From the IMG/VR virus record IMGVR_UViG_2529292921_000005, positions 1 through 13,062 of that record: a DNA stretch of 13,062 bases; one strand, 5' to 3'. The position numbers were made by a program, and so were the translations under genes. Each line of letters opens with the position of its first letter. Position 1 is the stretch's first letter. The stretch is from a virus (taxonomy: Duplodnaviria > Heunggongvirae > Uroviricota > Caudoviricetes). Positions 100-7,432 of this stretch are shown here, in pieces. The notes under the pieces are model-generated. The model had not been told where the DNA came from. It was given only the letters and a program-made list of their open reading frames with translations, and did not search any database.

Positions 100-447
100 A
101 TGGTAACGAAAAACATCACTGAACAGCGTGCGGAAGTACGTATTTTTGCCGGTAATGATCCGGCTCATACCGCCACAGGCAGCAGCGGGATTTCCTCGGC
201 AACACCGGCACTGACGCCACTGATGCTGGATGAAGCCAGCGGGAAACTGGTGGTCTGGGACGGACAGAAAGCCGGTAGTGCAGTTGGCATACTGGTACTG
301 CCGCTTGAAGGCACAGAGACGGTACTGACCTATTACAAGTCGGGGACCTTTGCGACGGAGGCAATCCGCTGGCCTGAAAGTGTGGATGAACACAAAAAGG
401 CCAATGCCTTTGCCGGCAGTGCCCTGAGTCACGCGGCGCTGCCGTAA
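100..447 (+). CDS. D: head decoration protein (gpD-like)
   Basis: 115-aa ORF; AGGAGG 12 nt upstream of ATG; motifs DPAHTATG and LTYYKSGTF...WPE match lambda gpD as I remember it; position directly upstream of the major capsid gene. Confidence 0.9.
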   Translation: MVTKNITEQRAEVRIFAGNDPAHTATGSSGISSATPALTPLMLDEASGKLVVWDGQKAGSAVGILVLPLEGTETVLTYYKSGTFATEAIRWPESVDEHKKANAFAGSALSHAALP

Positions 448-455
448 CACGTTAT

Positions 456-475
456 CAGGCCACCGCGGTGGCCTG
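456..475. other. perfect 20-bp palindrome (CAGGCCACCG|CGGTGGCCTG) in the D-E intergenic spacer; possible RNA hairpin or protein-binding site
   Basis: Direct reading: 456-465 is the exact reverse complement of 466-475. Lies between the D stop (447) and the E RBS/start (505). Confidence 0.5.
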
Positions 476-504
476 ACTGATTTCTGAATGAAAGGAACTG
501 ATTT

Positions 505-1533
505 ATGGGATTGTTTACGACCCGCCAGTTACTCGGTTATACCGAACAAAAAGTGAAATTTCGTGCGCTGTTTCTGGAGCTGTTTTTCCGCCGTACGGTG
601 AATTTCCATACCGAAGAGGTGATGCTGGACAAAATTACCGGAAAAACGCCGGTGGCGGCCTATGTCTCCCCGGTTGTTGAAGGAAAAGTGCTGCGTCATC
701 GCGGTGGTGAAACCCGCGTGTTACGTCCGGGCTACGTCAAGCCGAAACACGAATTTAATTACCAGCAGGCGGTTGAGCGTCTTCCCGGTGAAGATCCGGC
801 TCAGCTGAACGACCCGGCCTACCGTCGTCTGCGTATCATCACTGATAACCTCAAACAGGAAGAGCACGCCATTGTCCAGGTGGAAGAAATGCAGGCGGTG
901 AATGCCGTGCTGTATGGCAAATACACGATGGAAGGAGACCAGTTCGAGAAAATTGAGGTCGATTTTGGCAGGTCGACGAAGAATAACATCACTCAGGGTA
1001 GTGGTAAGGAGTGGTCAAAACAGGATCGTGACACGTTCGATCCTACACATGATCTTGACCTCTACTGCGACCAGGCCAGCGGTCTTGTGAATATTGCCAT
1101 TATGGACGGTACCGTCTGGCGTCTGCTGAATGGCTTTAAATTGTTCCGCGAAAAACTGGATACCCGTCGCGGCTCTAATTCGCAACTCGAAACAGCGGTG
1201 AAAGACCTGGGCGCGGTGGTGTCCTTCAAAGGGTATTACGGCGATCTGGCCATTGTGGTGGCAAAAACGTCTTATGTGGCAGAGGACGGTACCGAAAAAC
1301 GTTATCTGCCTGAGGGCTCGCTGGTCCTGGGGAATACGGCAGCAGAGGGCATTCGTTGCTATGGTGCCATTCAGGATGCGCAGGCGTTGTCCGAAGGTGT
1401 GGTGGCCTCTTCCCGTTATCCGAAACACTGGCTGACGGTAGGGGATCCCGCCCGTGAATTTACCATGACGCAGTCCGCGCCGCTGATGGTGTTGCCGGAC
1501 CCGGATGAGTTTGTGGTGGTACAGGTGAAATAA
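505..1533 (+). CDS. E: major capsid protein (gpE-like)
   Basis: 342-aa ORF; GAAAGGAA RBS upstream; near-colinear with lambda gpE (341 aa) including PGYVKPKHE, RRGSNS.LETAVKDLG and TGDPAREFTM.QSAPLM blocks. Confidence 0.95.
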   Translation: MGLFTTRQLLGYTEQKVKFRALFLELFFRRTVNFHTEEVMLDKITGKTPVAAYVSPVVEGKVLRHRGGETRVLRPGYVKPKHEFNYQQAVERLPGEDPAQLNDPAYRRLRIITDNLKQEEHAIVQVEEMQAVNAVLYGKYTMEGDQFEKIEVDFGRSTKNNITQGSGKEWSKQDRDTFDPTHDLDLYCDQASGLVNIAIMDGTVWRLLNGFKLFREKLDTRRGSNSQLETAVKDLGAVVSFKGYYGDLAIVVAKTSYVAEDGTEKRYLPEGSLVLGNTAAEGIRCYGAIQDAQALSEGVVASSRYPKHWLTVGDPAREFTMTQSAPLMVLPDPDEFVVVQVK

Positions 1534-1541
1534 TCCGTGAG

Positions 1542-1570
1542 CGGGGGCGAAATGCCCCCGTGTCTTTTTT
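1542..1570 (+). terminator. intrinsic-terminator-like hairpin plus T tract immediately 3' of the major capsid gene
   Basis: CGGGGGC (1542-1548), loop GAAAT, GCCCCCG (1554-1560), followed by TGTCTTTTTT (1561-1570). Function (partial terminator vs mRNA-stabilising 3' structure) is inferred. Confidence 0.45.
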
Positions 1571-1584
1571 CACAGGGGGATGAT

Positions 1585-1959
1585 ATGGCAACGAAAGAGC
1601 AAAATCTGAAACGGCTTGATGAACTGGCCCTGATTCTGGGGCGTGAGCCGGATATATCCGGGAGTGCCGCAGAGATAGCGCAGCGGGTGGCAGAATGGGA
1701 AGAGGAAATGCAGTCATCCGGCGATGATGTACAGGTTATGAATATGGATATCCGGGAGAGGGAAAACGCGGCTCATGATGTTCGTGAGGAAACATCCGGC
1801 GCGTTAACGCGCATCAGAGTTCTGACCTGCCTCCATCTCTGTGGCGTTGATGGTGAAACGGGGGAATCCGTTGAGCTTGCGGATGTTGGTCGGGTGATTC
1901 TGATTATGTCCTCAGATGCAAAAACACACGTTGATGGTGGAATGGCTGTTTATGCGTGA
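1585..1959 (+). CDS. FI: DNA-packaging / head assembly protein FI-like
   Basis: ATG at 1585 preceded by AGGGGGA; acidic 124-aa product with N-terminus MATKEQNLKRLDELA similar in character to lambda FI; stop overlaps the FII start. The ORF is open from 1537, but that extension overlaps the hairpin and lacks an RBS. Confidence 0.7.
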   Translation: MATKEQNLKRLDELALILGREPDISGSAAEIAQRVAEWEEEMQSSGDDVQVMNMDIRERENAAHDVREETSGALTRIRVLTCLHLCGVDGETGESVELADVGRVILIMSSDAKTHVDGGMAVYA

Positions 1960-4005: not shown

Positions 4006-4018
4006 ACGGAGGTAATAC

Positions 4019-4450
4019 ATGTTTCTGAAAACCGAACAATTTGAATATAACGGTGTGTCCGTCACGCTTTCCGAGCTGTCTGCGCTGCAGCGTATCGAGC
4101 ATCTTGCCCTGCTGAAACGACGGGCAGAACAGGCTGAAGCCAGCGGTAACCTGCAGGTGAGCGTGGAAGACCTTGTCAGAACCGGCGCGTTTCTGGTGGC
4201 GATGTCCCTGTGGCATAACCATCCACAGAAAACGGAGTCACCATCAATGAATGAGGCTGTGATGCAGATCGAACAGGAGGTGCTCACCACCTGGCCTGCT
4301 GATGCCATTGCCCGGGCGGAAGACGTGGTGTTGCGTCTGTCCGGGATGAGCGGGGCTGTTCATGTGGATACGGATATCACCGAAGTGGCGAAAAATAACG
4401 CGCTTACTGATGATGATTTTTCTGCGGGAAAGTCTTCGACGGCGAGCTGA
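4019..4450 (+). CDS. G: tail assembly chaperone G
   Basis: 143 aa; GGAGG RBS; MFLKTE.FE.NGV.VTLSELSALQRIEHLAL matches lambda gpG. Confidence 0.9.
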   Translation: MFLKTEQFEYNGVSVTLSELSALQRIEHLALLKRRAEQAEASGNLQVSVEDLVRTGAFLVAMSLWHNHPQKTESPSMNEAVMQIEQEVLTTWPADAIARAEDVVLRLSGMSGAVHVDTDITEVAKNNALTDDDFSAGKSSTAS

Positions 4451-4890: not shown

Positions 4891-7432
4891 TCTTATTATT
4901 GACCTGAGTCTGGATGCGGTCCGTTTCGATGAGCAGATGAGCCGGGTAAGGCGTCATTTTTCAGGACTGGATACTGACGCCAGAAAAACCGCCAGTGCTG
5001 TTGAACAGGGCCTGAGCCGCCAGGCGCTGGCTGCACAAAAAGCCGGGATTTCCGTCGGGCAGTATAAAGCGGCCATGCGAACCCTGCCCGCACAGTTTAC
5101 GGATATCGCCACGCAGCTTGCCGGTGGTCAGAATCCCTGGCTGATCCTGCTGCAACAGGGCGGTCAGGTGAAGGACTCCTTCGGCGGGATGATCCCCATG
5201 CTCAGGGGGCTTGCCGGTGCGATCACCCTGCCGATGGTCGGGGTCACCTCGCTGGCGGTGGCGACAGGTGCGCTGGCGTACGCCTGGTACCAGGGGGATT
5301 CCACGCTTTCAGCGTTTAATAAAACCCTGGTTCTTTCCGGTAATCAGTCCGGACTGACTGCCGATCGTATGCTGACTCTCTCAAGAGCCGGGCAGGCAGC
5401 AGGGCTGACGTTTAACCAGGCGAGAGAGTCACTGGCAGCCCTGGTGAATGCCGGTGTGCGTGGTGGTGAACAGTTTGATGCCATCAACCAGAGTGTCGCG
5501 CGTTTTGCGTCTGCATCCGGTGTGGAGGTGGATAAAGTCGCTGAAGCCTTCGGGAAGCTGACCACTGACCCGACGTCGGGACTGATGGCGATGGCGCGCC
5601 AGTTCCGTAACGTGACGGCAGAGCAGATTGCGTATGTTGCGCAGCTGCAGCGTTCCGGTGATGAGGCCGGGGCCTTACAGGCGGCGAACGATATCGCCAC
5701 GAAAGGCTTTGATGAGCAGACCCGCCGCCTGAAAGAGAACATGGGCACGCTGGAGACCTGGGCAGACAGGACTGCACGGGCATTCAAATCCATGTGGGAT
5801 GCGGTGCTGGATATTGGTCGTCCTGATACCGCGCAGGAGATGCTGATTAAGGCAGAGGCTGCGTTTAAGAAAGCAGACGACATCTGGAATCTGCGCAAGG
5901 ATGATTATTTTGTTAACGATGAAGCGCGGGCGCGTTACTGGGATGATCGTGAAAAGGCCCGTCTTGCGCTTGAAGCCGCCCGAAAGAAGGCTGAGCAGCA
6001 GACTCAACAGGACAAAAATGCGCAGCAGCAGAGCGATACCGAAGCGTCACGGCTGAAATATACCGAAGAGGCGCAGAAGGCTTACGAACGGCTGCAGACG
6101 CCGCTGGAGAAATATACCGCCCGTCAGGAAGAACTGAACAAGGCACTGAAAGACGGGAAAATCCTGCAGGCGGATTACAACACGCTGATGGCGGCGGCGA
6201 AAAAGGATTATGAAGCGACGCTGAAAAAGCCGAAACAGTCCGGCGTGAAGGTGTCTGCGGGCGATCGTCAGGAAGACAGTGCTCATGCTGCCCTGCTGAC
6301 GCTTCAGGCTGAACTCCGGACGCTGGAGAAGCATGCCGGAGCAAATGAGAAAATCAGCCAGCAGCGCCGGGATTTGTGGAAGGCGGAGAGTCAGTTCGCG
6401 GTACTGGAGGAGGCGGCACAACGTCGCCAGCTGTCCGCACAGGAGAAATCCCTGCTGGCGCATAAAGATGAGACGCTGGAGTACAAACGCCAGCTGGCTG
6501 CACTTGGCGATAAGGTCACGTATCAGGAGCGTCTGAATGCGCTGGCGCAGCAGGCGGATAAATTCGCACAGCAGCAACGGGCAAAACGGGCCGCCATTGA
6601 TGCGAAAAGCCGGGGGCTGACTGACCGGCAGGCAGAACGGGAAGCCACAGAACAGCGCCTGAAGGAACAGTATGGCGATAATCCGCTGGCGCTGAATAAC
6701 GTCATGTCAGAGCAGAAAAAGACCTGGGCGGCTGAAGACCAGCTTCGCGGGAACTGGATGGCAGGCCTGAAGTCCGGCTGGAGTGAGTGGGAAGAGAGCG
6801 CCACGGACAGTATGTCGCAGGTAAAAAGTGCAGCCACGCAGACCTTTGATGGTATTGCACAGAATATGGCGGCGATGCTGACCGGCAGTGAGCAGAACTG
6901 GCGCAGCTTCACCCGTTCCGTGCTGTCCATGATGACAGAAATTCTGCTTAAGCAGGCAATGGTGGGGATTGTCGGGAGTATCGGCAGCGCCATTGGCGGG
7001 GCTGTTGGTGGCGGCGCATCCGCGTCAGGCGGTACAGCCATTCAGGCCGCTGCGGCGAAATTCCATTTTGCAACCGGAGGGTTTACGGGAACCGGCGGCA
7101 AATATGAGCCAGCGGGGATTGTTCACCGTGGTGAGTTTGTCTTCACGAAGGAGGCAACCAGCCGGATTGGCGTGGGGAATCTTTACCGGCTGATGCGCGG
7201 CTATGCCACCGGCGGTTATGTCGGTACACCGGGCAGCATGGCAGACAGCCGGTCGCAGGCGTCCGGGACGTTTGAGCAGAATAACCATGTGGTGATTAAC
7301 AACGACGGCACGAACGGGCAGATAGGGCCACAGGCGCTGAAGGCTGTTTATGACGTAGCCCGTAAGGCGGCAATGGATGTTGTGACCGGGCAGATGCGCG
7401 ATGGTGGTCTGTTCTCCGGAGGTGGACGATGA
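4871..7432 (+). CDS. H: tail tape measure protein H
   Basis: 853 aa, identical in length to lambda gpH and near-identical over long stretches as recalled; central coiled-coil region and Gly-rich C-terminal segment; GGAGG RBS. Confidence 0.95.
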   Translation: MSQPVGDLIIDLSLDAVRFDEQMSRVRRHFSGLDTDARKTASAVEQGLSRQALAAQKAGISVGQYKAAMRTLPAQFTDIATQLAGGQNPWLILLQQGGQVKDSFGGMIPMLRGLAGAITLPMVGVTSLAVATGALAYAWYQGDSTLSAFNKTLVLSGNQSGLTADRMLTLSRAGQAAGLTFNQARESLAALVNAGVRGGEQFDAINQSVARFASASGVEVDKVAEAFGKLTTDPTSGLMAMARQFRNVTAEQIAYVAQLQRSGDEAGALQAANDIATKGFDEQTRRLKENMGTLETWADRTARAFKSMWDAVLDIGRPDTAQEMLIKAEAAFKKADDIWNLRKDDYFVNDEARARYWDDREKARLALEAARKKAEQQTQQDKNAQQQSDTEASRLKYTEEAQKAYERLQTPLEKYTARQEELNKALKDGKILQADYNTLMAAAKKDYEATLKKPKQSGVKVSAGDRQEDSAHAALLTLQAELRTLEKHAGANEKISQQRRDLWKAESQFAVLEEAAQRRQLSAQEKSLLAHKDETLEYKRQLAALGDKVTYQERLNALAQQADKFAQQQRAKRAAIDAKSRGLTDRQAEREATEQRLKEQYGDNPLALNNVMSEQKKTWAAEDQLRGNWMAGLKSGWSEWEESATDSMSQVKSAATQTFDGIAQNMAAMLTGSEQNWRSFTRSVLSMMTEILLKQAMVGIVGSIGSAIGGAVGGGASASGGTAIQAAAAKFHFATGGFTGTGGKYEPAGIVHRGEFVFTKEATSRIGVGNLYRLMRGYATGGYVGTPGSMADSRSQASGTFEQNNHVVINNDGTNGQIGPQALKAVYDVARKAAMDVVTGQMRDGGLFSGGGR

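What the first reader, a model, noticed from the sequence alone, without database searches (positions are those of the whole stretch)
1534..1584. Strong hairpin plus T8 tract directly after the major capsid gene, inside a supposedly single late transcript
CGGGGGC-GAAAT-GCCCCCG followed by TGTCTTTTTT has the form of a rho-independent terminator, yet it sits between E and FI in an operon expected to be read through as one unit under Q-type antitermination. It may act as a partial terminator or a 3' stabiliser that raises D/E mRNA relative to downstream genes, matching the high copy number of capsid proteins, and would terminate transcripts arising without antitermination.
Basis: partly seen in the sequence, partly recalled or inferred. 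Interest (0 to 1): 0.4.

Follow-up and report, generated by a model that had tools for sequence, protein, structure and literature searches.

The report
Terminator-like hairpin after phage capsid gene
The hairpin plus T-run after the major capsid gene is real and clearly kept by selection, but it belongs to an already recognised class of stem-loops that follow capsid genes in lambda, HK97, P22 and many other phages, and its exact role is still untested.

Summary
An 8-bp GC-rich hairpin (1541-1561, -16.8 kcal/mol) is followed by GTCTTTTTT. The T run is T6, not T8. Together they fill the 51-nt spacer between capsid gene E (505-1533) and FI (1585-1959) of a phage-21-like late operon.

The motif alone is not rare: 31% of shuffled windows hold one somewhere. 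Its position and conservation are what count. In 31 of 33 sampled E-type capsid loci (25-100% protein identity), a strong hairpin of unrelated sequence follows the capsid gene. Stem changes within the phage-21 clade are compensatory or wobble.

A T-rich tail is common (13 of the 21 closer spacers) but missing in several lineages, so the hairpin is the constant part.

Public annotation already records this class. HK97 has a 'putative terminator' after its head gene. P22 has a 'stem_loop ... similar in location to stem-loops in phage HK97 and phage lambda'. [quoted passage not shown]

Most likely it forms or protects 3' ends of D/E capsid mRNA, and it terminates RNA polymerase that lacks the antiterminator. 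This is inferred; no transcript data were available. Novelty is low.

The parts
100..447 (+). Head decoration gene D (115 aa), upstream member of the D-E high-copy capsid pair
   Evidence: ORF list. Same coordinates are annotated as head decoration protein in phage 21.
455..476 (+). D-E spacer hairpin TCAGGCCAC-CGCG-GTGGCCTGA (9 pairs, -16.8 kcal/mol) with a weak T tail (CTGATTTCTG); sister element of the finding
   Evidence: Equivalent hairpins sit in the D-E spacer of lambda and are annotated as rho-independent terminators in phage 434 and mEp237. Absent in 2 of 8 relatives.
505..1533 (+). Major capsid gene E (342 aa, PF03864)
1541..1561 (+). The hairpin: GCGGGGGC / GAAAT loop / GCCCCCGT, 8 pairs (7 G-C/C-G plus a closing G.U), -16.8 kcal/mol
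   Evidence: Stem pairing is 98.4% kept across phage-21-clade variants, with 2 compensatory pairs and wobble intermediates.
1562..1570 (+). T-rich tail GTCTTTTTT (T6 at 1565-1570); the likely release site for unmodified RNA polymerase would be in the T run
   Evidence: A T-rich tail (>=5 T in 8) is present in 13 of 21 closer spacers but absent in 4 (core stems read by eye).
1574..1580 (+). Shine-Dalgarno of FI (AGGGGGA), outside the hairpin; can alternatively pair with the 3' arm of the hairpin
   Evidence: RBS annotated at 1575-1579 in phage 21. Alternative hairpin 1555-1580 is -13.3 kcal/mol. The arm:SD duplex has p = 0.007 against shuffles, but only in the phage-21 clade and a few others.
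1585..1959 (+). FI (DNA packaging chaperone) gene
   Evidence: PF14000 neighbours are found in all relatives.
9766..9788 (+). I-J spacer hairpin AAACCGCC-TCCG-GGCGGTTT followed by TGTCGTTT; the third terminator-like hairpin of the operon
   Evidence: Annotated 'terminator' in the phage 21 record.

Best explanation
This is the phage-21-type version of the stem-loop that follows the major capsid gene in lambda-like and many other tailed phages. It acts in the late mRNA.

Shown: a stable GC hairpin sits just after the E stop codon and ahead of the FI ribosome-binding site. It has the form of an intrinsic terminator with an imperfect U tract. Selection keeps the stem.

Inferred mechanism:
1. RNA polymerase carrying the late antiterminator Q passes the site with little loss, so the operon is still read as one unit.
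2. Once the hairpin has emerged, it marks a stable 3' boundary. Transcripts that end in the T run, or longer transcripts that are cut downstream and trimmed back by 3'-5' exonucleases, stop at the hairpin.
3. D-E capsid message therefore outlasts and outnumbers FI and later message, adding modestly to the much larger effect of translation initiation.
4. Polymerase that is not Q-modified (leak through tR', spurious starts in a lysogen) terminates here. This is a secondary benefit in lineages, like this one, that have the T tract.
For: - The hairpin and tail are present, and this is the strongest terminator-like site of the window.
- Three of the four inter-gene gaps >20 nt in 13 kb (D-E, E-FI, I-J) hold a GC hairpin. 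Other junctions overlap or are <=14 nt.
- All 21 representative E-FI spacers drawn from about 200 loci (54-100% E identity, about 14 unrelated hairpin sequences, 11 enterobacterial genera) carry a hairpin between the E stop and the FI SD. All fold better than shuffles, p = 0.002-0.17.
- Ten of 12 distant E-family capsid genes (25-58% identity) also have one, each p <= 0.014. These include phages of families other than the lambdoids, such as Salmonella SPN19 (Casjensviridae) and phages of marine alpha-proteobacteria.
- Stem substitutions are compensatory (G:C to A:T in L004/L005; lambda ATGGCCC/GGGCCAT versus Cedecea GCGGCCC/GGGCCGT) or wobble.
- T enrichment: 13 of 21 tails have >=5 T in 8, against about 1 expected (my binomial estimate).
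- The hairpin never covers the FI SD.
- The same architecture follows unrelated capsid genes. HK97 gene 5 has an annotated putative terminator. P22 gene 5 has an annotated stem_loop 'similar in location to stem-loops in phage HK97 and phage lambda'. SPP1 gene 13 has a predicted terminator. T7 gene 10 is followed by Tphi.
- Weak terminators used to balance phage gene expression are described in PMC9163698.
Against: - No RNA data were examined, so every functional step is inference.
- From memory and not verifiable here: Sampson, Hendrix, Huang and Casjens (PNAS 1988) attributed the differing yields of lambda late proteins mainly to translation initiation, with roughly even mRNA along the operon. 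That would limit any mRNA effect to a modest one.
- The major tail gene V, also high-copy, has only a 13-nt spacer and no hairpin. The I-J hairpin follows low-copy genes. 'After abundant genes' is therefore not a complete rule.
- Two relatives lack the D-E hairpin, and 2 of 12 distant phages have no spacer after the capsid gene.
- The hairpin starts only 7 nt after the stop codon, so a terminating ribosome would open its outer pairs.
- The U tract is interrupted, and the terminator score is borderline (formula from memory).
Confidence: 0.55

Rival explanations
1. Fail-safe terminator only. The element exists to stop RNA polymerase that has not been modified by Q (leak past tR', spurious or read-in transcription in the prophage). 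It keeps head and tail genes silent in lysogens, is fully ignored during lytic growth, and has no effect on capsid mRNA level.
For: - It has intrinsic-terminator form with a T-rich tail on the coding strand only.
- T tails are enriched across relatives.
- PMC8022706 lists this as one of two possible roles for the equivalent P22/L element.
- Several such hairpins are spread along the operon: D-E, E-FI, I-J.
Against: - The hairpin is retained where no T tract follows it: L008, L190, L182, L204, and the Marinobacter, Erythrobacter, Ruegeria and Rhodobacter phages.
- It is also retained in phages outside the lambdoid group, such as Salmonella SPN19 of the Casjensviridae.
- Its position is specifically after the capsid gene in four unrelated capsid gene families. 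A pure silencing device would not need that.
Confidence: 0.2
2. Translation-level device. The hairpin insulates FI initiation from the heavy ribosome traffic ending at the E stop. In the phage-21 clade it could form a three-segment switch: when ribosomes open the 5' arm, the freed 3' arm (CCCCCGTG) pairs with the FI Shine-Dalgarno (CACAGGGGG), linking E translation to both terminator formation and FI initiation.
For: - The alternative hairpin 1555-1580 is -13.3 kcal/mol.
- The arm:SD duplex is better than shuffles in the window (p = 0.007), L197 (0.017), L004 (0.037, with changed bases GCTCC/GGAGC) and L003 (0.05).
- The hairpin lies 0-19 nt from the stop in all 21 closer spacers.
Against: - No arm:SD complementarity in lambda, L203, L006, L008, L009, L010, L190, L198-L202 or L204, so it cannot explain the universal hairpin.
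- C-rich arms and G-rich SDs pair by composition, and the shuffles do not preserve the SD motif.
- The terminator hairpin is 3.5 kcal/mol more stable.
- A ribosome at the stop codon would open only about 3 outer pairs (my estimate from footprint size).
Confidence: 0.08
3. No function: a chance palindrome in a spacer, or part of a longer FI reading frame starting at GTG 1537.
For: - The motif class occurs somewhere in 31% of shuffled windows.
- The 66-nt fold has z of only -1.5.
- An ORF 1537-1959 exists.
Against: - Hairpins are present in 31 of 33 independent lineages despite unrelated sequences.
- Stem changes are compensatory.
- Spacer lengths of 51, 51, 50 and 49 nt within the clade break the GTG frame.
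- FI starts at ATG 1585 behind an annotated RBS.
Confidence: 0.03

Closest known systems
Stem-loops or putative terminators annotated directly after the major capsid gene of lambda, HK97 and P22/L
   Same: - They sit directly after the capsid gene stop, inside a single antiterminated late operon.
- They are short GC-rich stems with tetraloop-size loops, usually with a T-rich tail. HK97: GGGCGGG-GAAA-CCCGCCC TTTT. P22: AGGGGC-TGCG-GCCCCT TTCTTT. Lambda: ATGGCCC-TTCG-GGGCCAT TGTTTCTCT.
- The same two roles have been proposed, and the function is stated to be unknown (PMC8022706).
   Different: - The sequence is unrelated to the lambda, HK97 and P22 hairpins.
- The phage-21-type copy is not annotated in the phage 21 record, which marks only the I-J terminator.
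- The T run here is longer than lambda's but separated from the stem by GTC.
T7 Tphi, the terminator immediately after major capsid gene 10
   Same: It is a terminator-type hairpin placed right after the most abundant structural gene, within a longer co-directional gene series. Inefficient terminators as a way to balance phage gene expression are cited for T7 in PMC9163698.
   Different: Tphi acts on T7 RNA polymerase and its leakiness is intrinsic. Here the polymerase is the host enzyme, and read-through would come from a Q-type antiterminator. Nothing has been measured for this element.
Intercistronic 3' stabiliser hairpins in bacterial operons (malE-malF REP, Rhodobacter puf, E. coli papBA; recalled from established literature, not checked here)
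   Same: A stable hairpin lies downstream of the cistron needed in excess. The proposed action is to block 3'-5' exonucleases so that the upstream segment outlives the rest. This would explain why lineages without a T tract keep the hairpin.
   Different: This is not a REP element: it is a single short perfect stem, not a dispersed repeat. It matched no Rfam family. Differential stability has not been shown for it.
Canonical Rho-independent terminators such as lambda tR' and the annotated D-E and I-J terminators of phages 434, mEp237 and 21
   Same: It has a GC stem, a short loop, a T-rich tail and the correct strand.
   Different: The stem-proximal U tract is interrupted (U G U C before U6), and the classical score is borderline (formula from memory). 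Annotators of phage 21 did not call it.

Membership tests
Intrinsic (Rho-independent) terminator | GC-rich stem of about 5-14 bp with a 3-8 nt loop | tested here: met
   8 pairs (7 G-C/C-G), 5-nt loop, -16.8 kcal/mol.
Intrinsic (Rho-independent) terminator | U-rich tract of about 7-9 nt immediately 3' of the stem | tested here: inconclusive
   6 T in the first 8 nt after the stem, but the order is G-T-C then T6. The d'Aubenton-Carafa-type score is -5.0 to +5.9 depending on where the stem is taken to end (formula recalled from memory).
Intrinsic (Rho-independent) terminator | RNA 3' ends form at the U tract with unmodified RNA polymerase | not testable with these tools
   Needs in vitro transcription or Term-seq. 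No transcript data are held.
Capsid-gene stem-loop of lambdoid late operons (lambda / HK97 / P22 class) | Hairpin directly after the major capsid gene stop and before the next late gene, on the coding strand | tested here: met
   The hairpin starts 7 nt after the E stop and ends 23 nt before the FI ATG. The same placement is annotated in HK97 and P22.
Capsid-gene stem-loop of lambdoid late operons (lambda / HK97 / P22 class) | Position conserved among relatives while the sequence is free to change, with pairing kept | tested here: met
   21 of 21 closer and 10 of 12 distant E-family loci. Compensatory and wobble changes in the stem.
Capsid-gene stem-loop of lambdoid late operons (lambda / HK97 / P22 class) | Lies within an operon read through by a Q-type antiterminator | not tested
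   The window holds no Q gene or pR'. This is inferred from about 90% identity to phage 21 across the region and from what is known of phage 21 Q.
3' stabiliser hairpin (mRNA decay barrier) | Stable hairpin downstream of the cistron that is needed in excess, independent of a U tract | tested here: met
   It follows E (and D). The hairpin is retained in lineages that lack a T tract.
3' stabiliser hairpin (mRNA decay barrier) | Upstream mRNA segment is more abundant or longer-lived, and this depends on the hairpin | not testable with these tools
   Needs a rifampicin chase or Northern analysis of stem mutants.
Any curated RNA family (Rfam 15) | Match at the gathering score | tested here: not met
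   No match anywhere in the window.

The most novel reading that the evidence does not exclude
In the phage-21 clade the element could be more than a terminator or stabiliser. It may be a three-segment, ribosome-sensing switch. Ribosomes finishing E would open the 5' arm, and the freed 3' arm (CCCCCGTG) would pair with the FI Shine-Dalgarno (-13.3 kcal/mol). Heavy E translation would then both prevent termination and throttle FI initiation, while untranslated transcripts would terminate.

More broadly, the near-universal, T-tract-independent hairpin after E-type capsid genes (down to 25% protein identity) may have a primary function other than termination.
Probability: 0.08. Interest if true: 0.55.

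Novelty: already known. Interest (0 to 1): 0.2.

Why it matters
If the inferred role is right, these hairpins are a simple and widely reused way for tailed phages to favour capsid message inside very long single transcripts. They would also act as built-in safety stops for polymerase that lacks the antiterminator.

Their role is openly described as unknown (PMC8022706). The survey here sharpens the question: the hairpin is nearly universal, while the T tract is optional. It also picks out natural variants for a direct test, namely T-less lineages and the compensatory L004 variant.

For this window it changes nothing about gene content or annotation beyond adding one regulatory feature.

Tried and rejected
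- **Rfam scan of the whole window:** no family matched.
- **Fold z-score of the 66-nt region:** only -1.5, because G/C-rich shuffles also fold well. It was replaced by motif counting in shuffles and per-spacer tests.
- **First automatic FI-start detection:** it picked an in-hairpin ATG and failed. A shuffle design with exhaustive sub-hairpin folding timed out.
- **Papers not held:** the lambda ribosome-profiling paper (tried by a DOI and a PMC id recalled from memory) and two further PMC ids recalled from memory for a lambda review and the corrected P22 genome paper. Statements about Sampson et al. 1988 and about lambda mRNA levels therefore rest on memory only.
- **Searches for lambda late-transcript 3'-end mapping:** nothing specific to E-FI turned up.
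- **Papers read that did not bear on the site:**
  - The lambda RIL-seq preprint reports Hfq-bound sRNAs elsewhere (PreS, LPR2, 6S), none at E-FI.
  - The CRISPRi preprint had no relevant terminator data.
  - The EHEC Term-seq paper discusses only tR'.
- **Arm:SD alternative pairing as a general feature:** rejected, because it is absent in most families.
- **Coding explanation (GTG 1537 start of FI):** rejected on spacer-length variation.

Full report
**What the window is**

The 13,062-base window is the late (head and tail) operon of a lambdoid phage or prophage. It is about 90% identical over 92-96% of its length to phage 21 and similar Escherichia phages.

Using the phage 21 annotation, whose coordinates match as far as FII, together with the ORF list, the genes are:
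- D 100-447, E 505-1533, FI 1585-1959, FII 1952-2305;
- then Z, U, V, G/T, H, M, L, K, I, and J 9808-13005.

The finding's interval 1534-1584 is exactly the spacer between the E stop and the FI start.

**Checking the observation**

The spacer reads TCCGTGA GCGGGGGC GAAAT GCCCCCGT GTC TTTTTT CACAGGGGGATGAT.

- The stem has 8 pairs: 1541-1548 with 1554-1561. Seven are G-C or C-G, and the closing pair is G.U.
- The core hairpin has -16.8 kcal/mol.
- It is the best terminator-like hit of the window scan.
- The uninterrupted T run is 6 bases (1565-1570), not 8, and GTC separates it from the stem.
- On the opposite strand no T tract follows the hairpin, so the element is directional.

Taken alone the motif is not statistically remarkable:
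- The terminator scan finds 17 sites against 11.4 +/- 3.4 in shuffles.
- A stricter hairpin-plus-T motif occurs once in the window, against 0.585 per shuffled window; 31% of shuffles have at least one.
- The 66-nt fold has z = -1.5.

What makes it non-random is where it lies:
- By my arithmetic, about 0.001 such motifs are expected in this 51-nt spacer on the coding strand.
- Of the four gene junctions longer than 20 nt, three hold a GC hairpin: D-E 455-476, E-FI, and I-J about 9766-9788. The Nu3-D gap does not.
- All other junctions overlap or are 14 nt or less.

**Comparative evidence**

The phage 21 spacer carries the same hairpin and T run and differs at a single base further downstream.

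Lambda, whose E protein is about 61% identical, has a different hairpin in the same slot, ATGGCCC-TTCG-GGGCCAT followed by TGTTTCTCT. It has another after D, GCCGC-CTGT-GCGGC followed by TTTTTTT.

I collected loci that encode E relatives from three sources:
- species-representative genomes;
- IMG/VR viral contigs;
- contigs encoding eight chosen homologues of 60-92% identity.

Every locus looked up by homologue keeps the order protease/scaffold, D, E, FI, FII.

The about 200 loci reduce to 21 representative E-FI spacers with about 14 mutually unrelated hairpin sequences. They come from Escherichia, Shigella, Citrobacter, Salmonella, Klebsiella, Edwardsiella, Trabulsiella, Providencia, Serratia, Erwinia and Cedecea.

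- All 21 carry a GC-rich hairpin between the E stop and the FI Shine-Dalgarno. Stems have 5-11 pairs and mostly 3-5 nt loops, including GAAA, UUCG, UACG, GCGA and GCAA.
- Every spacer folds better than its shuffles, with p from 0.002 to 0.17.

Within the phage-21 clade, all stem substitutions keep the pairing:
- G:C to A:T on both sides in L004/L005;
- G.U wobbles in L040, L046 and L191;
- overall 98.4% of cells paired, two pairs with changes on both sides, and 15 of 500 shuffles as good.

Lambda and a Cedecea prophage differ by ATGGCCC/GGGCCAT versus GCGGCCC/GGGCCGT.

A tblastn search of annotated phage genomes extended the survey to capsid genes of 25-58% identity. Ten of the 12 examined have a 45-79 nt spacer with a strong hairpin, each p <= 0.014:
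- mEp237, Aeromonas PhAER-1, Proteus Saba, Salmonella SPN19 (Casjensviridae), Vibrio 187P1;
- Marinobacter PS6, Erythrobacter R16L, Pectobacterium MA11, Ruegeria V7, Rhodobacter RcMaeve.

The other two (Pararheinheimera KLER1-1 and Paenibacillus phiERICV) have no spacer.

**The T tract**

I read the tails from the core stems by eye. Among the 21 closer spacers:
- 13 have at least 5 T in the 8 bases after the stem;
- 4 have 3-4 T;
- 4 have 2 or fewer (L008 Trabulsiella, L190, L182, L204). In these the hairpin runs straight into the FI ribosome-binding site.

About one T-rich tail would be expected by chance at 30% T, so the terminator form is favoured. It is not obligatory, however. Most of the distant marine and alpha-proteobacterial phages also lack a T tract.

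The constant element is therefore the hairpin. For this window's element, a classical terminator score is borderline (-5.0 to +5.9). By the same score the lambda D-E, HK97, P22 and L010 elements are clearly positive and the T-less ones clearly negative. I recalled the scoring formula from memory, so this is only indicative.

**What is already known**

Public records already mark this class:
- HK97 carries 'terminator, putative' at 5192-5213, right after major head gene 5 (GGGCGGG-GAAA-CCCGCCC TTTT). It marks further ones after the tail terminator gene, the major tail gene and a moron.
- P22 carries 'stem_loop 6102..6119, putative; similar in location to stem-loops in phage HK97 and phage lambda', right after coat gene 5.
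- Phage 434 and mEp237 have annotated rho-independent terminators between D and E.
- Phage 21 has an annotated terminator between I and J, but none at E-FI.

The phage L genome paper notes a putative terminator at the end of the procapsid gene module inside the single late operon. [quoted passage not shown] It then proposes partial termination, or stopping transcription that began without antitermination (PMC8022706).

The same layout is seen elsewhere:
- SPP1 has a predicted terminator at 8775-8815, and capsid gene 13 ends at 8777 (PMC6316719).
- T7 has Tphi immediately after gene 10 (PMC6938266).
- Leaky terminators as a means of balancing phage gene expression are discussed in PMC9163698.

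**How it most likely works**

Shown:
- a selected, directional RNA hairpin with intrinsic-terminator form sits just after the capsid gene;
- it never overlaps the downstream ribosome-binding site.

Inferred:
- Q-modified polymerase reads through.
- The hairpin then marks a protected 3' end, formed either by the minority of termination events or by exonuclease trimming of processed transcripts. This raises and prolongs D/E message relative to FI and later genes.
- Unmodified polymerase terminates here.

I prefer this reading over a pure prophage fail-safe role for three reasons:
- The hairpin persists without a T tract.
- It persists in phages outside the lambdoid group.
- It tracks the capsid gene in four unrelated capsid families.

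Points that weaken it:
- No transcript data were available.
- The effect may be small, because lambda late-protein ratios were attributed mainly to translation initiation (Sampson et al. 1988, from memory).
- The high-copy tail gene V has no such hairpin, while the I-J hairpin follows low-copy genes.

**A side observation**

In the phage-21 clade the 3' arm can alternatively pair with the FI Shine-Dalgarno (1555-1580, -13.3 kcal/mol). The duplex has p = 0.007 against shuffles here. Similar values are seen in L197, L004 and L003, but not in lambda or most other families. This allows an attenuator-like reading, but I rate it unlikely and clade-specific.

**Verdict**

The element is a member of an already recognised class whose function has never been settled. 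Interest is low. The useful product is the survey result (hairpin nearly universal, T tract optional) and a clear set of experiments.

Noticed in passing
window 455-476: The D-E spacer holds a palindromic hairpin, TCAGGCCAC-CGCG-GTGGCCTGA (9 pairs on the + strand, -16.8 kcal/mol), with a weak T tail (CTGATTTCTG). Lambda, phage 434 and mEp237 have a different hairpin with a strong T7 tail in the same slot, annotated as a rho-independent terminator in 434 and mEp237. Two relatives (Klebsiella L199, Salmonella L201) lack it.
   Followed up: partly
window 9766-9788: The I-J spacer holds the hairpin AAACCGCC-TCCG-GGCGGTTT followed by TGTCGTTT, with A's upstream, so it looks bidirectional. It is annotated 'terminator' in the phage 21 record. 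It follows low-copy tail-tip genes, which does not fit an 'after abundant genes' rule.
   Followed up: partly
window 1555-1580: There is an alternative hairpin between the 3' arm of the terminator stem (CCCCCGTG) and the FI Shine-Dalgarno (CACAGGGGG), at -13.3 kcal/mol. It is mutually exclusive with the main hairpin. It is better than shuffles in the phage-21 clade, L192 and L182, but absent in most other families.
   Followed up: partly
window 1537-1540 with 1570-1573; also L191, L197, L009, L192, L194: A short outer helix (GTGA/TCAC here; CAGG/CCTG and CAGA/TCTG elsewhere) encloses the hairpin and places the T tract in an internal loop. It appears in several independent families. It could be chance, since the helices are only 4 bp.
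   Followed up: no
window about 2104 and about 2638: There are mosaic boundaries. Phage-21-type relatives match from base 1. Lambda/434-type phages match only from 2638 (inside Z), and phage 2B8 from 2104 (inside FII). The window thus joins a phage-21-type head module to a lambda-type tail module.
   Followed up: no
window 4426-4432: A GGGAAAG slippery heptamer lies near the end of G (4019-4450). This is the expected site of the G-T -1 frameshift, which is annotated as a joined CDS in phage 21. A second GGGAAAG lies at 8548.
   Followed up: no
L199 1730-1826 (Klebsiella contig): The E-FI spacer is unusually long at 97 nt. It has a nested structure of -35.8 kcal/mol around a core AACCCCG...CGGGGTT hairpin. 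In the same locus the D-E spacer is only 26 nt and has no hairpin.
   Followed up: no
L029, L031, L034 (IMG/VR contigs): These contigs show single-base length changes in the G or C runs of the stem, which would bulge the hairpin. They are probably homopolymer sequencing errors rather than real variants.
   Followed up: no
L206 3944-3963 (HK97) versus window 4006-4018: HK97 has a T-less hairpin (TGCCGGG-TTGT-CCCGGCA), annotated as a putative terminator, after its major tail gene. The lambda-type V-G junction of this window is only 13 nt and has no hairpin.
   Followed up: no
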